Assembly: GCA_944371605.1 (NCBI GenBank)
Contig: CALVXU010000015.1
Coordinates: 9,686-73,685, forward strand
DNA length: 64,000 bases
Direction: 5' to 3'
Source: an uncultured Bacilli bacterium
GTDB taxonomy: Bacteria > Bacillota_I > Bacilli_A > RFN20 > CAG-288
Shown: positions 1,350 through 39,177 of the stretch, piece by piece
How positions within the stretch are numbered: the stretch's first letter is position 1
How the letters are laid out: each line of letters starts with the position of its first letter
The notes under the pieces: model-generated
Told to the model about the DNA's origin: nothing
The model's input: only the letters and a program-made list of their open reading frames with translations
Databases searched by the model: none
Translations under genes and position numbers: made by a program

Positions 1350-1423
1350 TGGCTGTGAGGAGATTCGAACTCTTGACATATCGGGTATGAACCGAGCGCT
1401 CTAGCCAACTGAGCTACACAGCC
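1350..1423 (-). tRNA. tRNA-Met (CAU), elongator type
   Basis: The reverse complement GGCTGTGTAGCTCAGTTGGCTAGAGCGCTCGGTTCATACCCGATATGTCAAGAGTTCGAATCTCCTCACAGCCA folds as a cloverleaf. Acceptor is GGCTGTG/CACAGCC, D stem GCTC/GAGC, anticodon loop TTCATAC, T loop TTCGAAT. Confidence 0.85.
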
Positions 1424-1439
1424 AAATAACGCAAAAGAA

Positions 1440-15704: not shown

Positions 15705-17528
15705 TCAATTTTTAATTGAGATATAACTGATATTACCATTTGTATGTGTGACTTTATAATAGAACTGAGCTAAATTAGTCCTAGTGAGAAATTCGATATT
15801 TTTAACTGAAGTATCTAAATTTAAGCCACGATTTCTGCTAAAAGAATAGCCGGTATAAAGAATTGTCCCTGTTGTATCCAATAGCAATGAGCACTGGTTG
15901 AAAGCATCCATAAACTTTCTGCTAAAGCGAGCATTTTCAAATTTTTCATTTGTGCTACTCACTTTTGATGTGACTTTGATTTCATCACTACTGGTCTCGA
16001 CTGCAGCTAGTAAATTATCTTTCGAATTATAAGTATCAAAGCGAGTGACACCAACATATCTTGTAGATAAGTCACCTATGATGTCATCAGAAGATTCATT
16101 GACATAATGATAATAACCAATTTTATCCTTATAAACAAAATTTTGTTCTGAATAAGTTTCGATTGAAGCAAAGCCATTACTCAATGGTTTACTTTCTAAA
16201 ATATAATCAGGTCTAGAAAAGAACGATTGTTTTTTACCATTACAATAAAATAAAAGTCCATCACCAGTCACATCATTGATTCCGATCATATTGCCTTCTC
16301 CAGCACAAGAGACCGAATAATAAGTATTCAATGAATTTGGAGATATCTCTTCAGTTTCTCCATCAGTCTCTTCTCCATCTTCAGAAGAAGAATTTAAAAA
16401 TGATTTGATATCTCCTGAACCTGTTATGGTAAAGGTATAAGAATTTTCTTCATCAACAGTTCCATCAGATTTTAATTTGAATCCAATGAATGAACTGCTA
16501 GCTAAAGATTTATGAGCCACGTGCCACCAAGTCGGTTTATGATATGAATAAGAAACATTCGCATCTAAGCTATTAAAAGTGACAGGAACATATTGTCGCA
16601 AATTAGTTTTTCCATCATCATTGAGGACAAACATCTCGCTTCTCACTATTCCTAATTTTGTATCATTACCTGTCGCTAAAACACATAGCGCTTTTTTGGT
16701 CGGAAGAACAAGGTATTGAACATTCTCACAATCTAAAAGTTTTTGTGAGAAACAATCGGTCGAAAGAATTTCATATTCCTTTTTATTGTCGTCGTCATCA
16801 TAAAAGATAGCTACGCCATTTTGATAAACAACACGATTCTGTCTATCAATATTATCCGTGTATGTCATAGATATATAATCATTAGTATATATGAAATCCA
16901 CCAAAGAAGCATCTTCATATGAAGATTTAGTCAATTCGTAATAAATAGGAAAGCCAGAATTACTATTTATGTTTGATTTTGTTTTTAGATAATAATCATC
17001 TTCTGGACCCGGATCATCATGATTGATAATCTGGGCGTTGATGGTATAACTATTAGTTATAGATATGGAAACATCAGAGAGATTTTCAAATGTAACTCCT
17101 AAATCGACACCTGTTGTTGTATAAAGAGCATAGTTATCCCCTAAGTCAATAGCTGCAAATGGCATATCATCATATATGTGAATAGGTTCATCTGAATATG
17201 GAACAGTCGTGAGATAACTTCTGCTTGTAATAGTATCGCCTAACAAGTAAATATCAACCGTATCTCCATGAGCTATATAACAAAAGCGAGAATAATTTAC
17301 ACCATCGTATTTAGGAAATTGTAAATCTTCAAAATATGAGTTGCTGACAATTGTTGGGGCACCTAAATTTGCATTTCCATTAAAGTCGAAGAAAGAGCCA
17401 TAACTATAAGAACTCTCAACTATATCAGTGTAATCTCTATCATGATAAGAATAACCTGGCGAGTCAAACAAACAAGATGTCAATAATAGTACTGATAAAG
17501 CACAAGGAATAATTGCAATTTTTTTCAT
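15705..17528 (-). CDS. Lipoprotein, last gene of the ESCRT-III/Vps4-like operon
   Basis: MKKIAIIPCALSVLLLTSCLF has a signal peptide with lipobox LLTSC. The 607-aa product is Ser/Thr/Tyr/Asp-rich and looks beta-rich and extracytoplasmic. It begins 18 nt after the preceding gene. Confidence 0.7.
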   Translation of the reverse strand: MKKIAIIPCALSVLLLTSCLFDSPGYSYHDRDYTDIVESSYSYGSFFDFNGNANLGAPTIVSNSYFEDLQFPKYDGVNYSRFCYIAHGDTVDIYLLGDTITSRSYLTTVPYSDEPIHIYDDMPFAAIDLGDNYALYTTTGVDLGVTFENLSDVSISITNSYTINAQIINHDDPGPEDDYYLKTKSNINSNSGFPIYYELTKSSYEDASLVDFIYTNDYISMTYTDNIDRQNRVVYQNGVAIFYDDDDNKKEYEILSTDCFSQKLLDCENVQYLVLPTKKALCVLATGNDTKLGIVRSEMFVLNDDGKTNLRQYVPVTFNSLDANVSYSYHKPTWWHVAHKSLASSSFIGFKLKSDGTVDEENSYTFTITGSGDIKSFLNSSSEDGEETDGETEEISPNSLNTYYSVSCAGEGNMIGINDVTGDGLLFYCNGKKQSFFSRPDYILESKPLSNGFASIETYSEQNFVYKDKIGYYHYVNESSDDIIGDLSTRYVGVTRFDTYNSKDNLLAAVETSSDEIKVTSKVSSTNEKFENARFSRKFMDAFNQCSLLLDTTGTILYTGYSFSRNRGLNLDTSVKNIEFLTRTNLAQFYYKVTHTNGNISYISIKN

Positions 17529-17546: not shown

Positions 17547-20500
17547 CTATAGTCCTGGATAATAGAAATTATATAGTAGTCCCATATAATCCTCTTTACT
17601 CATCATGAACTCGACTGCTAAAACTATTGGAACAATAATTCCTGCGATAGCAAATACTGAATTGACTGGATTTCTAAATTTGATGATGTGCGGATGATTG
17701 ACTAAATAGACTAATCCCATCAAAATAGTAGCTGCTAAAGGTAAATATTCAATCAATTTATAATCTGTCTGCACCATGAGATCTTCGAATAGATACACAA
17801 ATGGTATAGCTGCAAAAATTATTGTGAATATAATCGGAATAACTTTTGCCTTGATTCCGTTCCCTGAAAAAATCATCCAAGCGATACCTAGTGGTATAAC
17901 AATGAAAAGGTTGATATACGCATTAGCCATGCCGACGTTGACATGATTAAAATTGAGAAGAGTAAAAGCAAAGGAAGCGAGGATAGCAAAAATAGCATAG
18001 ACGATAGAAGAAGCTTTAAAGTAAGTGGCTGAGAGAGAGGACATGCTCTTTTTCTTATACCTGCCTATAACATTATTAGATTTTTGCTCAGTGGCTGTAC
18101 TTATTTTCGTTTTATACTTACTCAAGATATCAAAAAAGACATATTGTAGACTATCAAATTTCTTACCATTATATTTTCCAGAGCTGAGAGAAGCTAAGAA
18201 CTCAAATGACTCTTCTTTTGTGTTCTCGAAGAGAGTGAGATGAATTTTTTGAATCTCTTTCAAAGTTTTAATAATATTCTTTTTCTCATATTTAATACTC
18301 GCGATAGCAATATCTTGCCACACTTTATGAAAGTCTTTATTCAATGCTTGTGAAGAAGTTATTCTATTCGCTTTGATCAAGTCAGCATTCTTCTCATCTT
18401 CCTTTTGGCTCATAGAAATGATGTTATTATATTCATCTTCAGATTTACCAGTAGTATAATCAGCATTTTCTCCTAACAATAATAAGCCGAAATTGGTTTT
18501 GATGTGCAAAGCTGCTTTCAAATTGATCCAATAAGTCTCACTCGTATCTAATTGTAAAGCGATGAGTTTACCTATGAGTTCCTTAGCATTTTCAAACTTG
18601 CCAATCCATAGATTTCTTTCAGCAAAATCAGTGACAATAGTGTAATAATAATCATTAAATACATCATCGTCCATATATTCTTTAGCATTTGGTAAAATAG
18701 CTAAAACGTTGTTGAATAACAAATAAGCATTTTTACTTTTTTCTCTTAAATACTTAGTGCATAATTCAACGATAGTATTGACATAATTACCTTTAGAATT
18801 ATTGATTTTATAGCCACCTTTTAACATCATTTCAATGGTATTATTAACTTCTGATGGTTTATCAAGAATTTTAACTAAATCAGCATTATTAGAGATTTTA
18901 AACTTCACTAAAAGCTTGTTCCATAATGCAGTCGGATCAGCTTGGAATAACTCTAAAGCTTTATTTTGATATTTGATAGACGAATCAAATTTGCTAACTT
19001 TTCTGAATGCTGACGCGACCTGATCATAATAGCCGATGACTTTATTAGCACCACCGATAGTTAAAACATCATAGATAGCATCACTCATCTTATCCACATC
19101 TTCTACCAAATTCGAATATTTATTATTCTTACTATTAGAAGCGGCTATATGAGTCACAATAGCATTTTGTAGACTATAAGTGATATTTAGCTCATCTTTT
19201 TCATCAATATAACTCAATAAAAACTTATAAAGAGGTATCACATGGACAAATTGTTTAGAATCAGCAGAGTATTTAAGCTGTTCTTTTAAAATGTTGAGTT
19301 TTTCTTTGACATATTCCTCTGGTGCAAAAGAGAAGCATTTCCCTAAAACATCATTCAAGGTTTTCTCATTTAAACTAAAGGCAGTAGTAGACAACCCCAT
19401 CGTCGATGAGTTTTCATCTGCGACTCCATTATAAAGCAAATATAAGCACCAATATGCCTCATAATATTTGTTATTTTTTGCTGTTAAATCTCTTAAAGTT
19501 TTTTCAGCTGATTTACGATATTCAGCAGCTCTCTTCAATTTATTTTTGATTGTAAACGTGACCATCGATCGCATTTTTTCTTTAGCAGAGTCTAAAAGAA
19601 CTGCTTCATCAGCTGGGATGACAATCTTTTCTTTTGAGCCACCTAAAATAGTTTTTTCAATCTTTTTTTCGACGACTTGAATCGGTTTAATCTCGACTTT
19701 AATTTCTTTCTTTTTAACTTTAAACCCGACATTTCTTTGAATAGCCGACTTTAAGATTGCTTGCAAATTGTTATAAAATTGAGGATTGTATTGAAGAGCT
19801 TGCAATTTCTTTAGTTTTGCAGGGAATTGACTGATGTCAACCTTATTAGTGATGACTGGAACAAGAGCTAAGGCTGGATCTTCTTCTCTTCTTTTCAAAT
19901 ATCTCGACCACTCATTTTGAACCCATGGCTGAGTGATATAATCAACCTCATCAGTACAGATTAAAAGAAATACAGGAGCTGTCGATAAAGCATGATAAAT
20001 AATCGGTTCATATTCAGCACCGACTTTTTGCTTTAACGTCTCTTCCGAATAAAATACACGATATCCAGCCGCAGTCAAATTTTCATAAATATCTTTAGCT
20101 ACTTTGTCATCGGCAGTATAACCCTTGCCATCTAATGTGCGCACTTTTAATGATATAAAAATGTCATAAGGATCTTCTGAAGATAGCTTTTCATAAGCCA
20201 ATGAACGAATGTCTTCAAGTTCTTCAGCGCTCGCACGATAATTATCTGCTTGCTTACCTTTAGCATAGTTCAATGCTTGAATCAAGTTAGAATCTTCTAA
20301 ACAATTTCTGTCTGAGAGTCTATTTAAAGTTGGCTTATGGGTGGCATTACCATCTTCATCGACATATAAAATGCCATAATCACAAAGGAATTTTTGAAAA
20401 TATAATTCAGCTAAAATGTTTGTGTTATTCTTTTCATCATTTTTATATTTTACAATCAAATCATCAATATATTCTTCGCATTCTTCAAATTGCAATCTAT

Positions 20501-20663
20501 TTCTTTTTTCATACACACGTTGGATTTTTTCAGTCACATCGGCGTCAAAAGATATGACCGGAAATTCTCTATGACAATAGCTGCATTCAACAACACCATT
20601 GCTGACATCAGTGGACTGTATAGGCGCACCACAATAACTACAGGTCAAGTCTAACACTTCCAT
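17547..20663 (-). CDS. Zinc-ribbon / TIR-like domain / helical-repeat / 5-TM membrane protein
   Basis: N-terminal CSYCGAPIQ...CSYCHREF (CxxC...CxxC). The TIR-like block is YDIFISLKVRTLDGKGYTADDKVAKDIYENLTAAGYRVFYSEETL...VFLLICTDEVDYITQPWVQNEWSRYL (compare TIR_2: vFiSy...a..l...L...G..vf.d....G......i..al..a.v.l.l.s....S.Wv..E). About 550 aa of helical sequence follows. The C-terminal approximately 190 aa holds five hydrophobic helices. I set the start at the ATG at 20663, 8 nt after GGGGAGG; the track TTG is at 20669. Confidence 0.65.
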   Translation of the reverse strand: MEVLDLTCSYCGAPIQSTDVSNGVVECSYCHREFPVISFDADVTEKIQRVYEKRNRLQFEECEEYIDDLIVKYKNDEKNNTNILAELYFQKFLCDYGILYVDEDGNATHKPTLNRLSDRNCLEDSNLIQALNYAKGKQADNYRASAEELEDIRSLAYEKLSSEDPYDIFISLKVRTLDGKGYTADDKVAKDIYENLTAAGYRVFYSEETLKQKVGAEYEPIIYHALSTAPVFLLICTDEVDYITQPWVQNEWSRYLKRREEDPALALVPVITNKVDISQFPAKLKKLQALQYNPQFYNNLQAILKSAIQRNVGFKVKKKEIKVEIKPIQVVEKKIEKTILGGSKEKIVIPADEAVLLDSAKEKMRSMVTFTIKNKLKRAAEYRKSAEKTLRDLTAKNNKYYEAYWCLYLLYNGVADENSSTMGLSTTAFSLNEKTLNDVLGKCFSFAPEEYVKEKLNILKEQLKYSADSKQFVHVIPLYKFLLSYIDEKDELNITYSLQNAIVTHIAASNSKNNKYSNLVEDVDKMSDAIYDVLTIGGANKVIGYYDQVASAFRKVSKFDSSIKYQNKALELFQADPTALWNKLLVKFKISNNADLVKILDKPSEVNNTIEMMLKGGYKINNSKGNYVNTIVELCTKYLREKSKNAYLLFNNVLAILPNAKEYMDDDVFNDYYYTIVTDFAERNLWIGKFENAKELIGKLIALQLDTSETYWINLKAALHIKTNFGLLLLGENADYTTGKSEDEYNNIISMSQKEDEKNADLIKANRITSSQALNKDFHKVWQDIAIASIKYEKKNIIKTLKEIQKIHLTLFENTKEESFEFLASLSSGKYNGKKFDSLQYVFFDILSKYKTKISTATEQKSNNVIGRYKKKSMSSLSATYFKASSIVYAIFAILASFAFTLLNFNHVNVGMANAYINLFIVIPLGIAWMIFSGNGIKAKVIPIIFTIIFAAIPFVYLFEDLMVQTDYKLIEYLPLAATILMGLVYLVNHPHIIKFRNPVNSVFAIAGIIVPIVLAVEFMMSKEDYMGLLYNFYYPGL

Positions 20664-20665
20664 TT

Positions 20666-22105
20666 TCAATTCCTCCCCTTCAGTTTAAATTCAGGCATCT
20701 TTACTTTTTTAAACTCACTATCTAATAGGCATAGTTGATTTTTAATATCTTGTCTCATCCTAATAGCTCTCGAGAGACAATATTTATCGAACAAATCCAA
20801 GTCCACATCTGATACTTTGCGATAATGCGGGAATAAGATTTTCAAATACGCTGTCGCTATTCTCTTCACCGCACTGATATCACGAGTGTCACCATCAACT
20901 TCTTCTAAAAGTTCGTCGACCAAATGATCATAAACAGAATCGTTTCTAAAAAGATGTAGCATCTCAGTAAAATACTCACTGTTTAAAGATAAACCAGTCA
21001 CTTTCATCGACTCGCTCATCCGAGGAATGTCCCAACCACGAATGAAGCCATGAATACGATCTAATAAAGCCGAATCTCTAAAAATCATCGGCAGTTCAGA
21101 AAACATATCGACATTAGTATCCATATCAGCTTCTTTGATATTTCCTAAAAAAACCATTCCAGCATCAGCGATAGTCTTTTTAGTGCCAACAGCAAATTCA
21201 CCATTTTCTAGATATCCTTTCAATGCTCCTTGCATCTCATTCATATCTGGAAAACGAATGGTTTTTATCTCATCTAAAGCGACAACATCATAATTACCGA
21301 TGAGTCCGACCATATGATAGCGCATATCATAAAACAGCTTGGCTCTAGTCATCACACCACCAGAATTGAGCCATACATATTTAGATAAGCGAGAAAAAAC
21401 ATATGATTTTCCAGTCCCCTTCGGTGCCAGTTCAATCAGATTAAGACGCTTTTGAGCGAAAGGTAAAAGTCGAGAAATCATTGTCAGTCGTTCTTCTTCA
21501 TCAGCAAAAGAAGAAGCATTATAATCCATCGCACCCAAAACTAATTCAATCCATTCTTCGATAGAAAATTCTTTTCTGATATTACAAAAGTAATTCGCAT
21601 CTAATCTGTATGGCTTAAAGGCAGTAAACTTCTTAAGATTTATCTTTCTTAAAGTTTTTTTGCCTTGCACGTATTCCATTTTATTCAGAGTGACAACTCC
21701 CCAAAATTCACTATCTAAAGAAACTTTTTCTTCCTTGATTTTTTCCCATGCAAAATCAGATACAACAGTCGAATCAAAATCGACATCTAAATCCGGCATA
21801 GCAAAGGAAACATATCCTTCAGTGAGATTGATATTGATTTTTAATTTTGCTAAAAAAGTTATAGTACCAGAATTCAAAATAATCTCATCTAATAACAGCG
21901 GCCACGAAGTTTTATCCGGAATCAATTCCTTGACTTTTTCAGCTATCAAATTGATGTCATAAGTTCCGTCTTGATTAGCGTATTTTTTAACGATGTAATC
22001 ACGGATAAAAGCAGGAAGCGATAAAGAAGCGAAGAGTGAAGAAGCTTCTTTTTTATATAAAGACATCGGTTCAAAAAACTGTTGTAATTTTTCTTGAGTA
22101 CTCAT
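20666..22105 (-). CDS. BrxL-N-terminal / TIGR02688-like P-loop ATPase (no Lon-protease domain)
   Basis: Walker A LIELAPKGTGKSYVFS and Walker B YDVVALDEIK. The N-terminal region (LPAFIRDYIVKKY...KVKELIPDK...FLAKLKININLTEGYVSFAMPDL...FWGVVTL) is collinear with my recollection of the BrxL N-terminus (VPVYVLEYLLGMY...VK.IL..NYVRPDE...VIDKVTVKLNEK.D.YEA.L.NLG...GGIWC). At 479 aa it matches the TIGR02688 size class rather than full BrxL. Confidence 0.6.
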   Translation of the reverse strand: MSTQEKLQQFFEPMSLYKKEASSLFASLSLPAFIRDYIVKKYANQDGTYDINLIAEKVKELIPDKTSWPLLLDEIILNSGTITFLAKLKININLTEGYVSFAMPDLDVDFDSTVVSDFAWEKIKEEKVSLDSEFWGVVTLNKMEYVQGKKTLRKINLKKFTAFKPYRLDANYFCNIRKEFSIEEWIELVLGAMDYNASSFADEEERLTMISRLLPFAQKRLNLIELAPKGTGKSYVFSRLSKYVWLNSGGVMTRAKLFYDMRYHMVGLIGNYDVVALDEIKTIRFPDMNEMQGALKGYLENGEFAVGTKKTIADAGMVFLGNIKEADMDTNVDMFSELPMIFRDSALLDRIHGFIRGWDIPRMSESMKVTGLSLNSEYFTEMLHLFRNDSVYDHLVDELLEEVDGDTRDISAVKRIATAYLKILFPHYRKVSDVDLDLFDKYCLSRAIRMRQDIKNQLCLLDSEFKKVKMPEFKLKGRN

Positions 22106-22106
22106 A

Positions 22107-23576
22107 TTAAATTCCTAAATCATTTTCTTCGATCGGAGAAGAAATCTTAATCATGAATGAACATACTACATTTTTATCGAAAACATCCACTTGATATTCA
22201 CCTGCTTTTTCAATCTTAAAAAGATTGCTCTTATAATTTTTGATATCTTTAGTAGTAGCTACTTTTTGCCCATTCACAGAAATATAAATTGAATCATGTT
22301 GACCGCTTAGATAAAACTCAACCTGATAAAGATTTGTAGGACTATAGTCAAGTTCTCTATTCTTAACTATCAGTTCTTCATCAAGCGGAATATCTTGCTT
22401 AACACGGTTGTTTAGTGATTGTGTAGAAACATCATGAAGAGTCTTTTGAGAGCTATCGACTCCAGCATATTTTTCATATTCTTTAATATCTTTGATGTCG
22501 ATGTGTTTCCTAATTTCATCTGCCTCTCTGATAAAGTCTGCCATAGTGATATTGACAATCGTGTCACCTTTAAACGAAGCTACTAATGCGCGTTCTTTGG
22601 CTTTATCACATAAAAGGAACATATCAGCTCCAGAAAAATTATCAGTTATAGCCGCTAATTGATTAATGTCAACATCAGAATCCAAAGGTAATTTACTTAC
22701 ATTCTTAATAAGCATTCTTTTTCTTTCTTCATAATTTGGTAGTCTGATATAAATCTTTGTAGAAAAGCGGCCACTTCTTAATGCAGCACTATCAATACTC
22801 CAAGGTTTATTAGTAGAACCTAATAACAACAGATTAGGATTCTTTCCTGTGAAGCCATCAATCTGCTGTAAAAATTCATTTACACGGCGATCGTTATGTA
22901 TATCTAGACCGCGTGAGGCGAATAGAGTATCCATCTCATCGATGAAAATGATGCTTCTTTCATCTTTGCCTACAGCCTCAAATAATGAAGCGATATTTTT
23001 TTCAGATTCTCCAACCCACTTAGAAACAATATCAGATGAACGGACTAGATAAAACTTAGCTTTCACTTCATGGGCAACTGCTTTCGCTAACATCGTTTTA
23101 CCAGTGCCAGGCGGGCCATATAACAAAACTCCGCCACCGCTTTGTTTCTGATAAATCTTATATTTTTCTGGATACATCAAAGGATAGATCATGGCGATCT
23201 TTATCTCTTCTTTCGCCTCATCTAAACCGATGATATCATCGAATGAAACGTCTGGTGCTTCAGTGCATTGCCATATTTTTTTATCATCATCGCTATTAGC
23301 TTTATTTTTAATACCATTTGCTTTGTTTGTAGGAGCACGAGATGTATTCATGTTTTCTAATGTTAAATCATCAGCATATTTGACAAGTCTATTGGCTTTT
23401 TCTATCCGGGCTTTTTTTAATTCAGTTGTGGAAGATTTGCTCGCTAAAAGCAACTGCTGAGCAGCTAAATAATAATTGCGCTTAGCAAGATCAAGATTAC
23501 CATTAGCTTCATATTGTTTGGCTAAACGAAGATAATGGTCATATTTGTCCATTAAAAAGCTAACATTATTACCCAT
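22107..23576 (-). CDS. MIT-domain AAA+ ATPase of the Vps4/katanin/spastin (meiotic) clade, with an extra C-terminal beta-rich domain
   Basis: The N-terminus YLRLAKQYEANGNLDLAKRNYYLAAQQLLLASK...KARIEKANRLVKYADDL is MIT-like. The AAA core is VLLYGPPGTGKTMLAKAVAHE, SSDIVSKWVGESEK (compare Vps4 SSDLVSKWMGESEK), IIFIDEMD, GSTNKPWSIDSAALRSGRFSTKIYIRLP (compare Vps4 [25 protein letters not shown]). Confidence 0.8.
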   Translation of the reverse strand: MGNNVSFLMDKYDHYLRLAKQYEANGNLDLAKRNYYLAAQQLLLASKSSTTELKKARIEKANRLVKYADDLTLENMNTSRAPTNKANGIKNKANSDDDKKIWQCTEAPDVSFDDIIGLDEAKEEIKIAMIYPLMYPEKYKIYQKQSGGGVLLYGPPGTGKTMLAKAVAHEVKAKFYLVRSSDIVSKWVGESEKNIASLFEAVGKDERSIIFIDEMDTLFASRGLDIHNDRRVNEFLQQIDGFTGKNPNLLLLGSTNKPWSIDSAALRSGRFSTKIYIRLPNYEERKRMLIKNVSKLPLDSDVDINQLAAITDNFSGADMFLLCDKAKERALVASFKGDTIVNITMADFIREADEIRKHIDIKDIKEYEKYAGVDSSQKTLHDVSTQSLNNRVKQDIPLDEELIVKNRELDYSPTNLYQVEFYLSGQHDSIYISVNGQKVATTKDIKNYKSNLFKIEKAGEYQVDVFDKNVVCSFMIKISSPIEENDLGI

Positions 23577-24156
23577 TGAGTTTTTCCTGTAGTTTCTTAT
23601 CTAAATCAGCAAGAGATGCCTCGACATCATCCTTTTTGCCGTCTTGATTAATTTCTTCATTTATTAAAGACATGATTTCATCATTAGAAATATTACTGGC
23701 TTCAGAGACATTAGAGAATGAATCTTTAGAATCATCTAAAAACAGTTCCATTCTCTCTTGTTGTTTTTCAGTAGAAGCCATCGCTAAGCTGAATTGCTTA
23801 GAGACTTGTGCGAATTGCTTGTCATCTGTGAGTTTGACCATATCCTTAGAAAGAGAAGACATTCCATTCAAAAATTCAGACGTGGTTTGCAACATATCTT
23901 TCAAAGAGACCATGATTTCAAAATTGATTTTCATCTCACGAATCTTTTTCTCTTGTGCTAATGCACTTTTTAAAGCAGAAATCGCTAAAGATAGCTCATT
24001 ATCTAAGCCATGCAGCTTAGCTTCTTTAGCTTTTTCAATATAAATCTGTTTTTGCTCTTCTAACTTCTTCAATTGTTTCGTCATTTGAGCGATAGTTTTC
24101 TTCAAGGTTAACTTTTTTTCAAATTCTTTTTCTTCCTTACTTTTAAATATTGACAT
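23569..24156 (-). CDS. ESCRT-III (CHMP/Snf7)-like coiled-coil protein with C-terminal MIM-like helix
   Basis: 195 aa with a basic N-terminal half, an acidic C-terminal half and a long helical hairpin pattern. It is collinear with CHMP2-type proteins; for example, FAQVSKQFSLAMASTEKQQERMELFLDD aligns with LPQIQKIMMEFERQAEIMDMKEEMMNDAIDD. The C-terminus ASLADLDKKLQEKLNG resembles the MIM1 motif (CHMP2A ADLEERLKNLRR). Confidence 0.6.
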   Translation of the reverse strand: MSIFKSKEEKEFEKKLTLKKTIAQMTKQLKKLEEQKQIYIEKAKEAKLHGLDNELSLAISALKSALAQEKKIREMKINFEIMVSLKDMLQTTSEFLNGMSSLSKDMVKLTDDKQFAQVSKQFSLAMASTEKQQERMELFLDDSKDSFSNVSEASNISNDEIMSLINEEINQDGKKDDVEASLADLDKKLQEKLNG

Positions 24157-24727
24157 CTTGAGACTCCTCTTTCATATCTGATGAACTATTAGGTAAATCA
24201 TCACTTTCTTCAAACATCGCTAAAAGTTGATCATCGCTTTCATTGACCCCGTATATCTTATCATCTGGAGTATAAGACGCATTGACTTCATTAAAGACAT
24301 CATCAGCACTAGTCATAATCTCTTCACTCTTCACTTTAGTCTGCAATGCGCCATTCAAAAATTTAGCAAGGTTCTTTTGATCTGATAATAAATCCTGCAA
24401 AGATACATCTGAAGCAGCTTTAATAAAATCTTTATCGTCTAAAGCATCTTTAAGCTTTTTCAAAAGTTGTAAATTATAGAGCAAGTATAATGAACGTTGG
24501 ACTAAAGTTTGACGATCTTTTTTTAACGCTTCTATCTTCTTTGCATATAGAAGTCTAATATCACGATTCTTCTCTACTTTGCCTTTTTCTAATAGAGCTT
24601 GTTCTTCACGTGATTTTTGAATTATCTGCTCTTCAAGTGCTTGTTCACGATTATCTAATTCGATGATAGCATCAACAACTTCTTCACGTTTAAGCTTTTT
24701 AAATTTATTCTTCTTAAACGGCCACAT
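24143..24727 (-). CDS. ESCRT-III (Snf7)-like coiled-coil protein
   Basis: 194 aa with a basic N-terminus (MWPFKKNKFKKLKREE). It follows a Snf7-like pattern: ai.eL...e.LE....k.eee...L...G.....r....aKk.e.Lkk....l......l.n.q. The C-terminal tail is acidic (DDQLLAMFEESDDLPNSSSDMKEESQD). Its start overlaps the upstream stop in TGATG. Confidence 0.55.
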   Translation of the reverse strand: MWPFKKNKFKKLKREEVVDAIIELDNREQALEEQIIQKSREEQALLEKGKVEKNRDIRLLYAKKIEALKKDRQTLVQRSLYLLYNLQLLKKLKDALDDKDFIKAASDVSLQDLLSDQKNLAKFLNGALQTKVKSEEIMTSADDVFNEVNASYTPDDKIYGVNESDDQLLAMFEESDDLPNSSSDMKEESQDVNI

Positions 24728-25095
24728 CAGAATTTTTCCTCTTTAGTATCAATAGTAGTGACCAAGTTCTTTCTTTTCGTGATTGCTAATTTTAAATCAT
24801 TGATGCAGGAGATCAGCTTTTCACTAGCAAAATCAGTTTTTTTCAAGCACTTATTAACTTCAATCATCAAATCACCAATAGTGTTTTGGATATTTCTATC
24901 TGCCTTTTCACTATCAGCACGTGGGATGAGATATTTGATTTCCTCTCTCAAAGTTTTTAATTCCTTAGAAAGGTTGTCGTCTTTTCCTTCGACTAAATCA
25001 ACTAAAATATTCATCGAAGAAAGCATCTCAGAGATGCGATTCTTTGACTTAACCTCATCTTTATATGCAGAATTTTTATTTTTAAAAAAGAACAT
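24727..25095 (-). CDS. Small helical protein of unknown family (operon gene 2)
   Basis: An ORF of about 122 aa, predicted helical by composition. I moved the start to the ATG at 25095, 8 nt after GGAGG; the track start at 25110 contains the SD itself. Confidence 0.5.
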   Translation of the reverse strand: MFFFKNKNSAYKDEVKSKNRISEMLSSMNILVDLVEGKDDNLSKELKTLREEIKYLIPRADSEKADRNIQNTIGDLMIEVNKCLKKTDFASEKLISCINDLKLAITKRKNLVTTIDTKEEKF

Positions 25096-25119
25096 TTCCT
25101 TTTCCTCCAATCAATTCAA

Positions 25120-26235
25120 TCATCGAAGTTTTTGTCCACAATTAGGACAGAAGAGAGCATTTTCTGGAACACGAGCATGACAAGAAGGACACACACCATC
25201 TTCGATCAACTTAGTACCATCATTAGGACAGAACTTCATATTCCCACCAAATTTATTATGACAAGTGGGACAGACCATAGTGATAGAATGGGAACCAGAA
25301 ACAGGTTTAGCATTAGGAACTGATTTATTTCCATCTGTAGGCCATCCTAAAATTTTTAAAACATCATAATACTTATCAATATCTGAACTTTGTAAATCAT
25401 GTAAAATTTTCTCTCTTTCAAAGTTCTTATCATCTAATCTTTCTAATTCGGCGGCTATTTCCTTTGCATCTTTTTTCTCTTGCTCTTTATCTTTTAATTC
25501 TTTACGTCGTTTTTCGAGAGCTTGAATTTCAACCTCACTCGGAGAGATATTGCCGATAGTGAATGAGCAAACTTCTAAGCCATAATCATCACTGAACATC
25601 TGATTGATCTGTGTCTTAATATTTTCTGCGATATCTAATTTATATAAAGTTATTTCTTCAAAAGGAATATGTTTTTCCTTGAGCGTTTTATAAATATTAG
25701 GTTCAATGATAGATAAAAGTCTTTGCAATAAACGGATTTGTAAATCAGAGATTGTAAAATTCTTATCTGCTCCAACTAATTCTTGATAGAATTTTTGAGA
25801 ATTCTTTACACGTACTTCAAATTCACCAAATGCTCTCACATGAACCAAAATATCAGTAGCTTCATCGCGGAATGCGAAAGGCGTGCTAGTTCCCCATTTC
25901 ACAAGCAATCTAGCTGTTTTAGAAATAAAAACTAAATCAACTGAACAAGCACCTACTTTTCTAGCACTGAAAATTCCTTTTTTATAGTCAAATATCGGAT
26001 ATCTTCCGCCTTGTAAAACGTTCATCAGCATCCCGTCTTTCACAAACACCACTTCATGCGTTTGTGGAACAATAATTTCAGCTTCTGGATTTAAAACATC
26101 TGCTTGAAATCTCCAGAAAAGTGAATTGTTATCACCTTCAAATTTGATTTCTTTTAGATTTTTTAAATCCTTCTTATTCTTCTCATTGATCGAATCATCA
26201 TTGTTATTCAAATTAAACACACTTCTTTTTGCCAT
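25120..26235 (-). CDS. SPFH/Band-7-like protein with C-terminal double zinc ribbon (YdjI / COG4260-like)
   Basis: SLFWRFQADVLNPEAEIIVPQTHEVVFVKDGMLMNVLQGGRYPIF and LVFISKTARLLVKWGT fit the YdjI/virion-core-like SPFH family. The C-terminus CPTCHNKFGGNMKFCPNDG...CPSCHARVPENALFCPNCG holds two zinc ribbons. I moved the start to the ATG at 26235, 6 nt after GGGGGT. Confidence 0.7.
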   Translation of the reverse strand: MAKRSVFNLNNNDDSINEKNKKDLKNLKEIKFEGDNNSLFWRFQADVLNPEAEIIVPQTHEVVFVKDGMLMNVLQGGRYPIFDYKKGIFSARKVGACSVDLVFISKTARLLVKWGTSTPFAFRDEATDILVHVRAFGEFEVRVKNSQKFYQELVGADKNFTISDLQIRLLQRLLSIIEPNIYKTLKEKHIPFEEITLYKLDIAENIKTQINQMFSDDYGLEVCSFTIGNISPSEVEIQALEKRRKELKDKEQEKKDAKEIAAELERLDDKNFEREKILHDLQSSDIDKYYDVLKILGWPTDGNKSVPNAKPVSGSHSITMVCPTCHNKFGGNMKFCPNDGTKLIEDGVCPSCHARVPENALFCPNCGQKLR

Positions 26236-26520
26236 AGTGTACCCCCATACACACATATTTTATTTATTATATTAGAAAAAAAGTATACACACAATTAAAA
26301 ATATGTAACTTTAGTAGAATCCTAGTATAAAAATTCTCATTTTCAAATTTTACTAACTAAATGTTCCTAATGCTAAAATTAAATACTAAAAAACATAACC
26401 CATGTTGAATAAAATCTGAAAATTTGCATATATGATTGTGTGCCTACATATTACGTTTCGACATAGTAATCACTGTAATTATTTTTATCATGTAAAGTTT
26501 TAGAAGCTTACTGCTTAATT

Positions 26521-28218: not shown

Positions 28219-28221
28219 TAT

Positions 28222-28986
28222 TTAATTTCTATTTTCCTTATAATCTTTGTTCTTTTTTATAACAGCTTCTAGTAATTTAGGAGTTACACATTTTTCTTTT
28301 GCTTGCTTTACAATTGACGAAATATCTTTTGGAAGACAGCTTCCTCCATATCCTCTATTATTCTTATAGACAAAAGTATGACTTGAACCAATTCTAGGAT
28401 CTGCAATCCAAATTTCTCTAGCTTTGTTATATGAAACTCCTAGTTTTTGACAAATATCATACATCTCATTGCAAAAAATCACTTTAGTTGCTAAATATGC
28501 ATTTTCCATGTACTTAGCCATTTCGACAGTATCACTATCTCCTTGATATATTTTTACATTTGAATTAATAACACTTTGGTAAACTTCAATAGCCATATCA
28601 ATTGCATCTTGTTCGCCACCAAAAGATAGCCAAGAACGATCAGATAAATTGGCAAAAGGATGCGCAACAGTTTCACCATAATATTCAGGTTGAAAAACTA
28701 TCTTCTTATGGTATTTATTGACCATCTCTTTTGTAAAACCAACTTTAACAGTTGAACGTAAAATAAGCACTGGACATGAGCACATAGAAATTACTTCTTC
28801 AACTGCTGAAGTATCACAACTCCCATCCTCATTCATAGGCGTAGGAACACAAATAAAAGCAGCATCGCATTTATTAATTTCTTCCATACTTCCTATGTTT
28901 TTGAATTTATCATATAACACTGCTTCTTTAAAAAGATTACTCATTGCAGTTCCAACATGTCCCACTCCAACAATTCCAACTTTCAT
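28222..28986 (-). CDS. UDP-glucose/GDP-mannose dehydrogenase-family protein lacking the C-terminal UDP-binding domain
   Basis: MKVGIVGVGHVGTAM (Rossmann GxGxxG), FICVPTP and the catalytic Cys box GYGGSCLPKD. At only about 254 aa it is short. The start ATG at 28986 overlaps the TAA of the upstream giant gene in TAATG; the track start at 29001 contains the GGAGG. Confidence 0.7.
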   Translation of the reverse strand: MKVGIVGVGHVGTAMSNLFKEAVLYDKFKNIGSMEEINKCDAAFICVPTPMNEDGSCDTSAVEEVISMCSCPVLILRSTVKVGFTKEMVNKYHKKIVFQPEYYGETVAHPFANLSDRSWLSFGGEQDAIDMAIEVYQSVINSNVKIYQGDSDTVEMAKYMENAYLATKVIFCNEMYDICQKLGVSYNKAREIWIADPRIGSSHTFVYKNNRGYGGSCLPKDISSIVKQAKEKCVTPKLLEAVIKKNKDYKENRN

Positions 28987-35129: not shown

Positions 35130-35200
35130 AGCAGCCAACGGGAATCGAACCCGCATATACAGCTTGGGAAGCTATCGTTCTACCACTGAACTATGGCTGC
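35130..35200 (-). tRNA. tRNA-Gly (CCC anticodon)
   Basis: The reverse complement GCAGCCATAGTTCAGTGGTAGAACGATAGCTTCCCAAGCTGTATATGCGGGTTCGATTCCCGTTGGCTGCT folds as a cloverleaf. Acceptor is GCAGCCA/TGGCTGC, D stem GTTC/GAAC, anticodon stem ATAGC/GCTGT, loop TTCCCAA, T stem GCGGG/CCCGT with loop TTCGATT. The discriminator U is typical of bacterial Gly. No CCA is encoded. Confidence 0.8.
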
Positions 35201-39162: not shown

Positions 39163-39177
39163 TCTATCCTGACCTCC

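What the first reader, a model, noticed from the sequence alone, without database searches (positions are those of the whole stretch)
20666..22105. BrxL-like ATPase lacking the Lon-protease domain, embedded in the ESCRT-like operon
Seen in sequence:
- The 479-aa product has Walker A LAPKGTGKSYVF and Walker B VVALDEIK.
- Its N-terminal approximately 200 residues follow the same order of conserved blocks that I recall from the BREX protein BrxL: LP.F.(R/E)(D/E)Y..., VKE.I(P)..., a beta-hairpin-rich segment, then the P-loop.
- The length matches the stand-alone TIGR02688 class rather than full-length BrxL, so there is no C-terminal Lon-like domain.

Established knowledge: BrxL is a ring-forming, DNA-associated AAA+ protein of type I BREX. 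TIGR02688 proteins are sporadically distributed and uncharacterised.

Inference: its presence ties the operon to nucleic-acid sensing or defence rather than housekeeping membrane maintenance. Two different ring ATPases in one operon is unusual.
Basis: partly seen in the sequence, partly recalled or inferred. Interest (0 to 1): 0.7.

Follow-up and report, generated by a model that had tools for sequence, protein, structure and literature searches.

The report
Short BrxL inside bacterial ESCRT-TIR cassette
A DNA-encircling ATPase known from the BREX type 4 phage-defence system forms its own branch here inside a conserved bacterial gene cassette that pairs archaeal/eukaryote-style membrane-remodelling proteins (Vps4-like ATPase, ESCRT-III-like protein, SPFH scaffold) with a TIR immune-type enzyme; I found no description of this combination, and it is probably an anti-phage system.

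Summary
Window 20666-22105 (minus strand) encodes a 479-aa short BrxL. It scores 388 bits on TIGR02688 (cutoff 329), has BrxL_N and BrxL_ATPase domains with intact Walker A/B, and has no Lon-like C-terminal domain.

This class is no longer uncharacterised: it is the BrxL of type 4 (phosphorothioate) BREX. No BREX-4 partner occurs anywhere in the 64-kb window.

The gene sits in a tightly packed, conserved cassette:
- an SPFH protein with zinc ribbons
- a small helical protein
- a ~195-aa coiled-coil protein
- an ESCRT-III-like protein
- a Vps4/CdvC-like AAA ATPase with an MIT-like N-terminus
- short BrxL
- a zinc-ribbon/TIR protein with C-terminal membrane helices

Of the 80 species-representative loci most similar to this protein, 69 are BREX-4, 8 carry this cassette, 2 are truncated and 1 has another context. 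Cassette BrxLs form a separate clade (bootstrap 100/100).

The Vps4-like ATPase ends in a DUF7862-like beta-domain, which is also the C-terminus of BREX-4 PglZ. In both systems this is the gene directly upstream of brxL. Five BrxL-less versions of the cassette lack the domain, so it is a candidate BrxL-docking module.

Best reading: an undescribed membrane-associated defence system that borrowed the BREX DNA-ring ATPase. Function is inferred, not shown.

The parts
20666..22105 (-). Short BrxL (BrxL-s), 479 aa. BrxL_N (aa 10-141; described in the literature as sigma-HTH-like plus OB-like) followed by an MCM-like AAA+ domain (aa 156-469). No Lon-like C-terminal domain.
   Evidence: TIGR02688 388 bits, above cutoff 329. 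Pfam BrxL_N and BrxL_ATPase. PADLOC BrxL 578 bits. 8EMC E 2.7e-44. Belongs to a separate cassette-specific clade, bootstrap 100/100.
21395..21430 (-). Walker A of BrxL-s, LAPKGTGKSYVF (aa 226-237).
   Evidence: K229-S234 are invariant in a 30-sequence alignment that spans both clades.
21263..21286 (-). Walker B of BrxL-s, VVALDEIK (aa 274-281). E279 aligns with the Walker B DE of Acinetobacter BrxL; the paper reports that the Walker B mutant E280Q abolishes restriction.
   Evidence: PMC10164562.
22107..23576 (-). Vps4/CdvC-like AAA ATPase, 489 aa. MIT-like three-helix bundle, a linker, a classical AAA domain with lid, C-terminal helices, a linker, then a beta-sandwich.
   Evidence: The best NCBIfam model is CdvC (205 bits, E 1.4e-60, aa 13-370 against profile 12-364/370; below the equivalog cutoff). 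Pfam AAA and AAA_lid_3. Vps4_C is detected in 8 of 10 orthologues, best E 1.1e-7. AF2 pLDDT 80. M. sedula Vps4 gives TM 0.88-0.89, rmsd 2.4.
23367..23564 (-). MIT-like N-terminal three-helix bundle of the AAA (aa 5-70).
   Evidence: AF2 helices 5-24, 28-46 and 51-70 with pLDDT about 90. The N-terminal profile hits MIT domains only weakly (2MPK E 0.07; Vps4B MIT E 1.7-7.6). Precomputed Pfam MIT (PF04212) is recorded on relatives P0300 and P0310. The CdvC model alignment starts at aa 13.
22137..22379 (-). DUF7862-like C-terminal beta-sandwich of the AAA (aa ~400-480). Candidate BrxL-s docking domain.
   Evidence: Pfam DUF7862 24.2 bits, E 3.4e-5, below the GA of 27. An HMM of BREX-4 PglZ C-termini hits only this region in cassette loci (E 8e-7 to 0.02). 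The reciprocal HMM hits only the C-termini of BREX-4 PglZ (down to E 2e-10). AF2 pLDDT about 87. The domain is absent from all five BrxL-less cassettes.
23569..24156 (-). ESCRT-III-like protein ('snfB'), 195 aa. N-terminus MSIFKSK..., five helices, acidic tail, and a C-terminal amphipathic helix resembling an MIM1 motif (family consensus D-x-E-L-E-x-L-x-K-K).
   Evidence: Pfam Snf7 is hit weakly by 5 of 11 family members (best E 0.001). AF2 gives helices 7-48, 52-107, 112-149, 158-172 and 175-194, pLDDT 67. The top Foldseek PDB hits are CdvB, CHMP2A-CHMP3, CdvB2 and CHMP1B (prob 0.77-0.97), but E is 0.08-0.5. The family has 618 clusters, all unannotated.
24143..24727 (-). Second conserved ~195-aa coiled-coil protein ('snfA'). 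Basic/hydrophobic N-terminus MWPFKKNKFKKLKR and a conserved C-terminal motif IYG-x4-DDQLLAMFE. An ESCRT-III fold is not demonstrated.
   Evidence: Conserved in every cassette variant. No Snf7 or PspA signal in Pfam or PDB profile searches. hhalign against snfB is not significant.
24727..25110 (-). Small helical protein, 127 aa (TTG start). Its position is conserved but its sequence is fast-evolving.
   Evidence: A 112-160-aa ORF occupies the same slot in all loci. BLAST similarity is found only in L001-L005, L012 and L017.
25120..26256 (-). SPFH/Band-7 protein (YdjI-type Band_7_1) with a coiled coil and C-terminal double zinc ribbon, 378 aa. No predicted TM helix.
   Evidence: Pfam Band_7_1 87.7 bits, Zn_Ribbon_1 and DZR. 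Conserved as the first cassette gene. Maximum KD19 is 1.42.
17547..20669 (-). Zinc-ribbon / helical / TIR / variable region / 5-TM protein, 1040 aa. Presumed effector or sensor.
   Evidence: Pfam TIR_2 42.5 bits, aa 186-295. The N-terminal ~310 aa are conserved in all orthologues and the C-terminal regions are variable. Five hydrophobic segments lie at aa 889-1025.
19770..20174 (-). TIR domain (aa ~166-300). The beta-A motif is YDIFISLK (aa 168-175). The catalytic-position Glu is E253, in PWVQNEW.
   Evidence: The Glu of the NEW motif is present in 10 of 10 aligned orthologues. Coordinates. Assignment of this Glu to the catalytic 'W-x-x-E' position rests on my own knowledge of TIR NADases.
17595..18005 (-). 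C-terminal membrane anchor of the TIR protein (five predicted TM helices).
   Evidence: Kyte-Doolittle 19-residue means of 1.94-2.57.
26257..26520 (-). 264-nt intergenic region upstream of the SPFH gene. Likely the promoter region of the operon.
   Evidence: Three minus-strand promoter-like sites at 26376-26347, 26346-26319 and 26309-26282. These are consensus matches only, and the region-wide count does not exceed the shuffles.

Best explanation
The gene encodes a short BrxL, the ring-forming, dsDNA-encircling MCM-like AAA+ ATPase of type 4 BREX. It belongs to a distinct evolutionary branch that has left BREX and become a fixed component of a seven- to eight-gene, membrane-associated cassette of Bacillota.

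The cassette core also exists without BrxL. It consists of:
- an SPFH-zinc-ribbon scaffold
- a small helical protein
- two ~195-aa coiled-coil proteins, at least one of them ESCRT-III-like
- a Vps4/CdvC-like ATPase with an MIT-like N-terminus
- a zinc-ribbon-TIR protein, usually membrane-anchored

Proposed mechanism:
1. Inferred: BrxL-s is tethered to the Vps4-like hexamer through the DUF7862-like beta-domain that this ATPase carries only when BrxL-s is present. BREX-4 PglZ carries the same domain at its C-terminus.
2. Inferred: BrxL-s lacks the Lon-like domain that joins two rings tail to tail in long BrxL, so that face is free for the partner.
3. Inferred: BrxL-s loads ATP-dependently on invading DNA near the membrane. 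This engages the Vps4-like ATPase, which remodels the ESCRT-III/SPFH assembly through its MIT-like domain and the C-terminal MIM-like helices.
4. Inferred: remodelling releases or activates the TIR protein, which depletes NAD+ or makes a signal, giving abortive infection.

Shown here: family membership, domain content, intact ATPase motifs, conservation and clade structure, the shared domain, and its perfect co-occurrence with BrxL-s.

Inferred: the physical docking, DNA as the trigger, TIR as the effector, and a defence role.
For: Family and motifs:
-.

Not BREX:
- No BrxP, BrxC, PglZ-4 or 67-aa homologue anywhere in the 64-kb window (tblastn). Pfam and PADLOC scans of the neighbours agree.

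Conserved cassette in different flanks:
- L001-L006, L008-L014, L016, L017 and L060.
- The genes are tightly packed.

Dedicated clade:
- NJ tree, and 100/100 bootstrap support for the cassette | BREX-4 split. The two truncated loci fall in the cassette clade.

Vps4-like ATPase:
- CdvC is the best NCBIfam model, and its alignment spans the MIT-like N-terminus to the C-terminal helix.
- Vps4_C is found in 8 of 10 orthologues.
- AF2 and Foldseek support the fold.

ESCRT-III-like protein:
-.

Shared DUF7862-like domain:
- Reciprocal HMM hits fall only on the C-terminus of the gene directly upstream of brxL-s in both systems.
- L007's 753-aa protein is confirmed as BREX-4 PglZ.
- Co-variation: every cassette locus with BrxL-s has the domain (16 fetched loci, about 11 distinct, plus the window). 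Five BrxL-less cassettes (L090, L092-L095) lack both the domain and BrxL-s.

Conflict-system flavour:
- The TIR catalytic-position Glu is conserved in 10 of 10 orthologues.
- The C-terminal regions of the TIR protein are hypervariable.
- Add-ons are interchangeable: an HtrA-like protease in 6 of 8 species-level loci, a cytidine deaminase in L093, and a second TIR protein in L095.
- The window copy lies in a low-GC stretch (0.26-0.35, against 0.40 for rpoBC) next to tRNA-Gly, with other defence-like genes nearby.

Literature:
- Long BrxL encircles dsDNA through its N-terminal and ATPase domains. Its C-terminal domain only dimerises rings. Only the Walker B mutant loses restriction (PMC10164562).
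- Type 4 brxL is not needed for DNA modification (PMC12914056).
Against: - No experiment bears on this cassette, and none of its proteins except BrxL matches a validated defence protein. The IetA hit is generic AAA similarity.
- ESCRT-III assignment is statistically weak. Foldseek E is 0.08-0.5, Pfam Snf7 E is at best 1e-3, and the AF2 pLDDT is 67.
- The second coiled-coil protein shows no ESCRT-III signal at all.
- The MIT assignment rests on a predicted three-helix bundle and weak profile hits.
- The window protein's own DUF7862 score (24.2 bits) is below Pfam's threshold.
- Docking of DUF7862 on BrxL-s is inferred from gene order and co-occurrence only.
- Many flanks are housekeeping genes (ftsAZ, sigma factors, tRNA synthetases). 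Only a minority of 75 flanking ORFs hit PADLOC models, some through generic ATPase similarity, so a defence-island signal is modest.
- SPFH/ESCRT-III pairs elsewhere (B. subtilis ydjFGHI) are stress-response genes rather than immune genes.
Confidence: 0.55

Rival explanations
1. BrxL-s is a co-located but mechanistically independent module. It would be a stand-alone DNA-directed restriction or 'backup' factor that rides with the ESCRT-like/TIR cassette as neighbouring defence genes do, without physical coupling to the Vps4-like ATPase.
For: The ESCRT-like/TIR core exists and is presumably functional without BrxL-s (L090, L092-L095). The position of brxL-s relative to the TIR and protease genes permutes. 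Defence genes commonly cluster.
Against: BrxL-s of this clade was never seen outside the cassette in the loci sampled. The split from BREX-4 has 100/100 support. The genes are tightly packed. The Vps4-like ATPase gains a PglZ-4-type C-terminal domain exactly when BrxL-s is present. No short BrxL in the sample stands alone with a clear context, except L059, which I did not examine.
Confidence: 0.15
2. The cassette is a membrane-stress or repair system, an elaborated PspA/YdjI-type module, and not immunity. BrxL-s would act as a general AAA+ remodeller and TIR as a metabolic or signalling enzyme.
For: The SPFH protein is the YdjI type (Band_7_1 plus zinc ribbon) that recruits PspA in B. subtilis (PMC11188069 and PMC11237479). 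ESCRT-III superfamily proteins repair membranes. Several loci sit among housekeeping genes.
Against: Distribution is patchy and lineage-jumping, with different flanks each time. The BrxL N-terminal DNA-binding domains are retained. TIR, deaminase and protease add-ons are typical of conflict systems. The C-termini of the TIR protein are hypervariable. No PspA Pfam signal was found.
Confidence: 0.15
3. The cassette traffics DNA. An ESCRT-III/Vps4 machine would bud membrane vesicles and BrxL-s would load or thread DNA into them, as in ESCRT-dependent DNA-carrying vesicles of Sulfolobus. This would serve gene transfer or a mobile element.
For: The archaeal ESCRT-vesicle precedent is cited in PMC7619361. 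BrxL is a dsDNA-encircling ring (PMC10164562). A phage integrase lies near one BrxL-less variant (L093).
Against: No recurrent integrase, relaxase or replication genes flank the cassette. There is no snfB homologue on 72,556 plasmids. The conserved TIR protein has no obvious role in export. Most variants lack BrxL altogether.
Confidence: 0.08
4. Chance adjacency: an orphan brxL left over from a decayed BREX-4 locus that happens to lie next to an unrelated operon.
For: The protein is 45-50% identical to BREX-4 BrxL.
Against: The same arrangement recurs in at least 11 distinct loci from Anaeroplasmataceae, Christensenellales and several Clostridia lineages. There is a dedicated clade, 1-4-nt junctions with both neighbours, and no BREX-4 remnants in the window.
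Confidence: 0.02

Closest known systems
Type 4 BREX BrxL (short BrxL, NCBIfam TIGR02688; brxP-brxC-pglZ-brxL loci)
   Same: Same architecture: BrxL_N plus an MCM-like AAA+ domain and no C-terminal domain. Same length (~475 aa) and 45-50% identity. The Walker A/B, sensor and Arg positions are invariant across both groups. In both systems the upstream gene ends in a DUF7862-like domain.
   Different: No PAPS-reductase BrxP, BrxC, PglZ-4 or the conserved 67-aa downstream ORF. A separate clade with 100/100 bootstrap. The partner is a Vps4-like ATPase instead of PglZ. The downstream gene is a TIR protein.
Type 1 BREX BrxL (TIGR02653; Acinetobacter BrxL, PDB 8EMC/8EMH)
   Same: Homologous N-terminal and ATPase regions (E 2.7e-44, aa 19-461). 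By homology it is a DNA-dependent ring ATPase that binds dsDNA in its pore (PMC10164562).
   Different: It lacks the ~200-residue Lon-like domain that mediates tail-to-tail ring dimerisation (PMC10164562). No PglX, PglZ or BrxA/B/C is nearby.
Archaeal ESCRT systems (CdvB/CdvC; the 'Meth_adaptin' type with an SPFH, coiled-coil and zinc-ribbon protein; Makarova et al. 2024, PMC11188069)
   Same: A Vps4/CdvC-like MIT-AAA ATPase next to ESCRT-III-like proteins and an SPFH-zinc-ribbon protein.
   Different: [quoted passage not shown] It has no CdvA, ESCRT-I/II or adaptin-like genes. It has TIR, BrxL-s, protease or deaminase add-ons. The CdvC model score is far below the equivalog cutoff (205 against 650 bits).
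Bacillus subtilis ydjFGHI (PspA with the SPFH-zinc-ribbon protein YdjI)
   Same: A Band_7_1 SPFH domain with C-terminal zinc ribbons, encoded next to ESCRT-III-superfamily proteins (PMC11237479, PMC11188069).
   Different: No PspA-type protein was detected. It has a Vps4-like ATPase, TIR and BrxL-s. There is no YdjG/YdjH.
TIR-based bacterial defence systems (for example Thoeris ThsB, TIR-STING, TIR-NLR)
   Same: A TIR domain with the conserved catalytic-position Glu, fused to variable repeat or sensor regions.
   Different: There are no PADLOC hits to ThsA/ThsB or any other known TIR system. The TIR is preceded by a zinc ribbon and helical domain and followed by TM helices. Its partners are ESCRT-like proteins.

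Membership tests
BrxL, short class (NCBIfam TIGR02688) | Whole-protein HMM score above the curated equivalog cutoff. | tested here: met
   388.3 bits against a cutoff of 329.3, full-length alignment.
BrxL, short class (NCBIfam TIGR02688) | BrxL N-terminal domain followed by a BrxL/MCM-like AAA+ domain with intact Walker A/B. | tested here: met
   Pfam BrxL_N (aa 10-141) and BrxL_ATPase (aa 156-469). GTGKS and DE motifs are invariant. Alignment to 8EMC.
BrxL, short class (NCBIfam TIGR02688) | Absence of the Lon-protease-like (or HKD) C-terminal domain. | tested here: met
   The protein ends at aa 479. TIGR02653 aligns only to profile positions 4-460 of 675. The PDB alignment stops at residue 458 of 679.
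BrxL (function) | Forms hexameric or heptameric rings, binds dsDNA, and has DNA-dependent ATPase activity. | not testable with these tools
   Inferred from homology to Acinetobacter BrxL (PMC10164562).
BREX type 4 system | Adjacent brxP (PAPS reductase), brxC and type-4 pglZ. | tested here: not met
   No homologue in the 64-kb window by tblastn at E<=1e-3. There are no PglZ, PAPS_reduct or BrxC hits on neighbours in Pfam or PADLOC. By contrast, 69 of 80 related loci have them.
BREX type 1 system | PglX methyltransferase, PglZ, BrxA, BrxB, BrxC and long BrxL. | tested here: not met
   PADLOC and Pfam scans of all ORFs between 4.3 and 35 kb found none. The BrxL is the short form.
ESCRT-type system (Vps4 plus ESCRT-III) | Vps4: a classical AAA domain with the Vps4 C-terminal helix. 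| tested here: met
   Pfam AAA and AAA_lid_3. Vps4_C in 8 of 10 orthologues, E down to 1.1e-7. The CdvC model is the best NCBIfam hit and aligns to profile position 364 of 370. Vps4 structure TM 0.88-0.89. Caveats: Vps4_C is not listed among the window protein's own Pfam hits, and p97 D2 scores almost as well.
ESCRT-type system (Vps4 plus ESCRT-III) | Vps4: an N-terminal MIT domain. | tested here: inconclusive
   A confident AF2 three-helix bundle at aa 5-70. Only weak profile hits to MIT domains (E 0.07-7.6). Pfam MIT is recorded on two relatives. The CdvC alignment starts at aa 13.
ESCRT-type system (Vps4 plus ESCRT-III) | ESCRT-III subunit: a helical hairpin plus helices 3-5, an acidic tail and an MIM. 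| tested here: inconclusive
   For snfB: Pfam Snf7 in 5 of 11 members (E>=1e-3). The five-helix AF2 model has as its best PDB matches CdvB, CHMP2A/3 and CHMP1B, but E is 0.08-0.5. For snfA there is no signal.
PspA/YdjI membrane-stress module | A PspA/IM30 family protein next to an SPFH-zinc-ribbon protein. | tested here: not met
   The SPFH Band_7_1 plus zinc-ribbon protein is present, but no PspA_IM30 hit was listed for either coiled-coil family at E<=10.
Thoeris or other named TIR defence systems | TIR protein (ThsB-like) with a cognate effector (ThsA with SIR2 or TM, plus SLOG). | tested here: not met
   No PADLOC hit for the TIR protein or its neighbours other than BrxL and generic AAA.
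TIR NADase superfamily | TIR fold with a catalytic Glu. | tested here: met
   Pfam TIR_2 42.5 bits. The Glu of the W-x-x-N-E-W motif is conserved in 10 of 10 orthologues. Enzymatic activity is not testable here.

The most novel reading that the evidence does not exclude
This would be the first bacterial ESCRT machine (Vps4 plus ESCRT-III plus an SPFH scaffold), working as an immune system. A BREX-derived DNA-ring ATPase would be bolted onto Vps4 through a dedicated docking domain (DUF7862). Detection of incoming foreign DNA at the membrane would then be converted into ATP-driven membrane or ESCRT-III remodelling and TIR activation. The same docking domain on BREX-4 PglZ would reveal how BrxL is wired to the BREX effector.
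Probability: 0.3. Interest if true: 0.9.

Novelty: new variant of a known kind. Interest (0 to 1): 0.72.

Why it matters
1. Recent reviews state that Vps4-like ATPases, and systems combining Vps4 with ESCRT-III, are absent from bacteria (PMC7619361, PMC11188069). This cassette has hundreds of distinct relatives in gut and rumen Bacillota, and it looks like such a system. Its polymorphic TIR, deaminase and protease add-ons point to immunity rather than housekeeping.

2. How BrxL contributes to BREX restriction is unresolved. The same C-terminal domain sits on the two different proteins encoded just upstream of short brxL: PglZ-4 in BREX-4 and the Vps4-like ATPase here. It disappears when BrxL is absent. 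This gives a concrete, testable hypothesis for how the BrxL ring is coupled to effectors.

3. It shows that a BREX component is a portable module reused outside BREX. It also links DNA sensing, membrane remodelling and NAD+ chemistry in one operon, echoing eukaryotic ESCRT roles in membrane repair during cell-death immunity.

Tried and rejected
- **BREX membership.** I asked whether the locus is a BREX system or a decayed one. It is not: there are no BREX-4 or BREX-1 partners in the window.
- **The 607-aa ORF downstream (15705-17528).** It lies 18 nt after the TIR gene, but it is absent from all related loci and carries a lipoprotein signal. I do not count it as part of the cassette.
- **Paralogy of the two ~195-aa proteins.** hhalign gave probability 0.5-0.6%.
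- **Second coiled-coil protein (snfA) as ESCRT-III or PspA.** No support in Pfam or in a PDB profile search.
- **snfB profile against PDB sequences.** Only spurious hits. The ESCRT-III signal comes only from weak Pfam hits and a fold search.
- **PADLOC IetA/TRIP13 hits on the AAA.** I judged these to be generic AAA similarity.
- **Plasmid carriage.** The ESCRT-III-like protein has no match in PLSDB. The best plasmid BrxL-s hit is a BREX-4 locus in Methanosphaera.
- **Defence-island enrichment.** A PADLOC scan of 75 flanking ORFs gave scattered hits only (MzaA, MADS, DrmC, PDC-M26A and others) with no baseline, so I treat it as weak.
- **Source organism.** Cluster look-up returned no names.
- **Literature.** Nine full-text searches found no paper describing this cassette.


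Full report
**1. Observation**

The ORF is real and sits at the stated coordinates, on the minus strand. It runs 20666-22105, starts with ATG and encodes 479 aa. The quoted motifs are present: Walker A LAPKGTGKSYVF at aa 226-237 and Walker B VVALDEIK at aa 274-281.

It passes the curated NCBIfam threshold for TIGR02688 (388.3 bits against 329.3; E 4e-116) along its whole length. The long-BrxL model TIGR02653 reaches only 195.7 bits (cutoff 628) and aligns to profile positions 4-460 of 675, so the Lon-like third is missing.

Other scores agree. Pfam finds BrxL_N (aa 10-141) and BrxL_ATPase (aa 156-469). PADLOC's 482-aa BrxL model gives 578.6 bits. The solved Acinetobacter BrxL (8EMC) matches at E 2.7e-44 over aa 19-461.

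**2. What the family is**

The statement that TIGR02688 proteins are uncharacterised is out of date. NCBIfam now names the model 'BREX system Lon protease-like protein BrxL'.

[quoted passage not shown] In a gut Bacteroides type 4 system, brxL was not needed for phosphorothioate modification (PMC12914056).

For long BrxL, cryo-EM shows rings around dsDNA held by the N-terminal and ATPase domains. The Lon-like domain only joins two rings tail to tail. Only the Walker B mutant loses restriction (PMC10164562).

**3. The window locus is not BREX**

No homologue of BrxP, BrxC, type-4 PglZ or the small ORF that follows brxL in BREX-4 loci occurs anywhere in the 64 kb (tblastn). Pfam and PADLOC scans of the surrounding ORFs find no BREX component.

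**4. Survey of relatives**

A profile scan of one genome per GTDB species found at least 590 loci encoding relatives. The 80 most similar were fetched with 10-kb flanks. I BLASTed their ORFs against the window's neighbours and against a reference BREX-4 locus: L007, Clostridium bowmanii, whose 753-aa protein is confirmed as BREX-4 PglZ at 408 bits.

The 80 loci divide as follows:

| Context | Loci |
|---|---|
| BREX-4 | 69 |
| The window's cassette | 8 |
| Truncated at the contig edge | 2 |
| Another context (L059), not examined | 1 |

Metagenomic contigs carrying closer relatives (52-67% identity) show the same cassette in entirely different flanks.

In a neighbour-joining tree all cassette BrxLs, including the two truncated loci, form one clade separate from all BREX-4 BrxLs. 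The split has 100/100 bootstrap support. Mean identity is 0.54 within the cassette clade, 0.69 within BREX-4 and 0.50 between them.

The 80 loci are the ones most like the window protein. The cassette type is therefore a small minority of the family as a whole.

**5. Anatomy of the cassette (all minus strand, in transcription order)**

- **25120-26256: SPFH protein.** It is the YdjI type (Band_7_1) with a coiled coil and double zinc ribbon.
- **24727-25110: small helical protein.** Its position is conserved but its sequence evolves fast.
- **24143-24727: 'snfA'.** This conserved 194-aa coiled-coil protein has a basic/hydrophobic N-terminus and a conserved IYG...DDQLLAMFE motif. No ESCRT-III or PspA signal could be obtained.
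- **23569-24156: 'snfB'.**
  - Five of 11 family members give weak Pfam Snf7 hits (best E 0.001).
  - An AF2 model (pLDDT 67) has the five-helix ESCRT-III layout.
  - Its best PDB fold matches are CdvB, CHMP2A-CHMP3, CdvB2 and CHMP1B. Probabilities are 0.77-0.97 but E-values are 0.08-0.5.
  - The family consensus starts MGLFKSK and ends in an amphipathic D-x-E-L-E-x-L-x-K-K helix. From my own knowledge these resemble ESCRT-III N-termini and the MIM1 motif.
- **22107-23576: AAA ATPase.**
  - Its best NCBIfam model is archaeal CdvC/Vps4 (205 bits, E 1.4e-60, aa 13-370 against profile 12-364/370; below the equivalog cutoff).
  - Eight of 10 orthologues hit Pfam Vps4_C (best E 1.1e-7).
  - AF2 (pLDDT 80) predicts a confident N-terminal three-helix bundle, a classical AAA module, and a C-terminal beta-sandwich behind a disordered linker.
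  - Metallosphaera Vps4 superposes at TM 0.88-0.89 and rmsd 2.4 A. p97 D2 is nearly as good.
  - MIT identity is only weakly supported by sequence.
- **20666-22105: BrxL-s.**
- **17547-20669: TIR protein.**
  - From the N-terminus it has a zinc ribbon, a helical region, a TIR domain and a variable region, and it ends in five predicted TM helices.
  - The Glu of the W-x-x-N-E-W motif (E253) is conserved in 10 of 10 orthologues.
  - Only the first ~310 residues are conserved. The remainder varies in length (678-1588 aa overall) and content.

Gene junctions are overlaps of 1-14 nt or gaps of at most 9 nt. A 264-nt intergenic region with promoter-like sites precedes the SPFH gene.

In 6 of the 8 species-level cassette loci an HtrA-like serine protease without PDZ domains is inserted near brxL-s. 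The window lacks it. The position of the TIR gene permutes: first, before brxL-s, or after it.

**6. A domain shared with BREX-4 PglZ**

Pfam gave a sub-threshold DUF7862 hit at the C-terminus of the window AAA (aa 418-477, 24.2 bits). DUF7862 is the C-terminal domain of the BREX-4 PglZ of L007.

Two reciprocal tests support the link:
- An HMM built from the last 130 residues of 52 BREX-4 PglZ proteins hit only the C-terminal ~80 residues of the Vps4-like ATPases among all ORFs of the cassette loci (E 8e-7 to 0.02).
- An HMM from the last 95 residues of the cassette ATPases hit, outside its own family, only C-termini of BREX-4 PglZ ORFs that end just before brxL (L069 2e-10, L038 8e-8, L028 3e-6 and about 15 more). 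It also hit the truncated ORF upstream of brxL in L015.

In both systems the protein encoded immediately 5' of short brxL therefore ends in the same beta-domain.

**7. The core exists without BrxL, and then the domain is gone**

Relatives of the Vps4-like ATPase come in three forms:
- ~480-530 aa with the C-terminal domain
- ~380 aa without it
- ~700 aa with two AAA modules

Five loci of the latter two kinds (L090, L092, L093, L094, L095) retain the SPFH-zinc-ribbon protein, the small protein(s), snfA, snfB, the AAA and a large zinc-ribbon/TIR-like protein. None of them has BrxL-s or a DUF7862-like domain.

Every locus with the domain has BrxL-s: 16 fetched loci, about 11 distinct, plus the window. 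This co-variation is the main argument that the domain couples BrxL-s to its partner.

The BrxL-less variants add other conflict-type parts. L093 has a cytidine deaminase between snfB and the AAA and a phage integrase nearby. L095 has two TIR proteins and a trypsin-like protease.

**8. Mechanism**

Shown: a member of the dsDNA-ring BrxL family with intact ATPase motifs; a dedicated clade; fixed membership in a cassette with a Vps4-like ATPase, at least one ESCRT-III-like protein, an SPFH scaffold and a TIR protein with the catalytic-position Glu and TM helices; and the shared, co-varying C-terminal domain.

Inferred:
1. DUF7862 docks on BrxL-s, plausibly on the face that long BrxL uses for its Lon-like domain.
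2. BrxL-s reports or engages foreign DNA close to the membrane.
3. The Vps4-like ATPase, recruited through MIT-MIM-type contacts, remodels the coiled-coil/SPFH assembly.
4. This licenses the membrane TIR protein to consume NAD+ or make a signal, aborting infection.

I put about 0.6-0.65 on a defence or conflict role, about 0.4-0.5 on physical coupling of DUF7862 to BrxL-s, and less on the exact order of events.

**9. Rivals**

- BrxL-s as an independent co-located restriction factor (0.15).
- A membrane-stress or repair module of the PspA/YdjI type (0.15).
- DNA export through ESCRT-made vesicles (0.08).
- Chance adjacency or a BREX remnant (0.02; refuted).

**10. Novelty and literature**

Nine full-text searches found no description of this cassette.

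The relevant statements in the literature are:
[quoted passage not shown] They also describe archaeal 'Meth_adaptin' loci with an SPFH, coiled-coil and zinc-ribbon protein (PMC11188069).
- A 2025 review says a Vps4-like ATPase 'appears absent in bacteria' (PMC7619361).
- The PSP survey notes only sporadic Vps4-like transfers to bacteria in which snf7 is displaced. It also notes the PspA-YdjI association (PMC11237479).
- The BREX survey restricts BrxL to BREX types 1 and 4 (PMC12839542).

The protein itself is a new sub-branch of a known family. The system around it appears undescribed. The snfB family alone has 618 clusters at 90% identity, all unannotated. I rate the finding 'new variant of a known kind', and give the bolder reading (a bacterial ESCRT-based immune machine) separately as the novel case.

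**11. Limits**

- ESCRT-III and MIT assignments are weak statistically, and snfA is unassigned.
- The window protein's own Vps4_C and DUF7862 signals are sub-threshold and rely on family-level evidence.
- The survey of BrxL-less variants covers five loci.
- The defence-island signal in the flanks is modest.
- The literature library is incomplete.
- The source organism is unknown. Relatives are gut and rumen Bacillota and Anaeroplasmataceae.

Noticed in passing
window 28986-34409 (-): A giant 1807-aa ORF combines two GT2 glycosyltransferase domains, a methyltransferase-like region and a C-terminal SLOG (LDcluster4) domain. It lies in the lowest-GC part of the window (0.26). SLOG domains are nucleotide-ligand sensors often linked to TIR systems, but this gene is not conserved next to the cassette elsewhere.
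   Followed up: partly
window 26521-28218 (-): A 565-aa protein with a DEDDh 3'-5' exonuclease-like region (PADLOC 'DEDDh, Cas-associated', E 1.3e-11) sits directly upstream of the cassette. tblastn shows a weak internal or adjacent repeat at 27829-28344.
   Followed up: no
window 9966-13380 (-): A 635-aa AAA_5 protein hits the PADLOC candidate system model PDC-M26A (E 1.6e-38). An overlapping 507-aa ORF lies downstream. This is possibly a second defence candidate in the same low-GC stretch.
   Followed up: no
window ~9000-35200: This stretch has low GC (0.26-0.35) compared with 0.40 for rpoB/rpoC (35239-42963). It is bounded by tRNA-Gly(CCC) at 35130-35200 and looks like a genomic island holding the cassette and other defence-like genes.
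   Followed up: partly
window 15705-17528 (-): A 607-aa ORF lies 18 nt downstream of the TIR gene. It has a lipoprotein signal peptide (…LLLTSC) and no family hits, and it is absent from all related cassettes.
   Followed up: partly
window 28222-29001 (-): A 259-aa ORF carries only part of a UDP-glucose/GDP-mannose dehydrogenase (a partial N-terminal hit plus the central domain). Its start overlaps the end of the 1807-aa ORF. It may be a truncated or fused gene.
   Followed up: no
L018-L089 (BREX-4 loci), e.g. L007 11437-11640: A conserved ~67-aa ORF immediately follows brxL in nearly all BREX-4 loci sampled (37-60% identity). I did not see it mentioned among the BREX-4 components described in the papers read.
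   Followed up: partly
L093 7515-7979; L095 4789-7368, 10144-13801: BrxL-less versions of the ESCRT-like cassette carry other effector-like genes. L093 has a cytidine deaminase (dCMP_cyt_deam_1/MafB19-deam) between snfB and the AAA and a phage integrase nearby. L095 has two TIR proteins, a double-AAA Vps4-like protein and a trypsin-like protease.
   Followed up: partly
L090 8293-12060; L094 9176-12910; L093 9150-12998: In the ~380-aa-AAA variants the downstream ~1250-aa protein keeps the zinc-ribbon/helical N-terminal region of the TIR protein family (HMM E 6.6e-30). In L090, whose sequence I read, it lacks the NEW motif and has TM segments and a Gly-rich repeat C-terminus. This suggests a degenerate TIR or a different effector.
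   Followed up: partly
L059 (Synergistaceae MAG) 9974-11437: This short BrxL falls in the BREX-4 clade, yet has neither BREX-4 nor cassette neighbours within 10 kb. It may represent a third context.
   Followed up: no
window 1266-1424 (-): Two tandem tRNA-Met(CAT) genes lie 7 nt apart.
   Followed up: no
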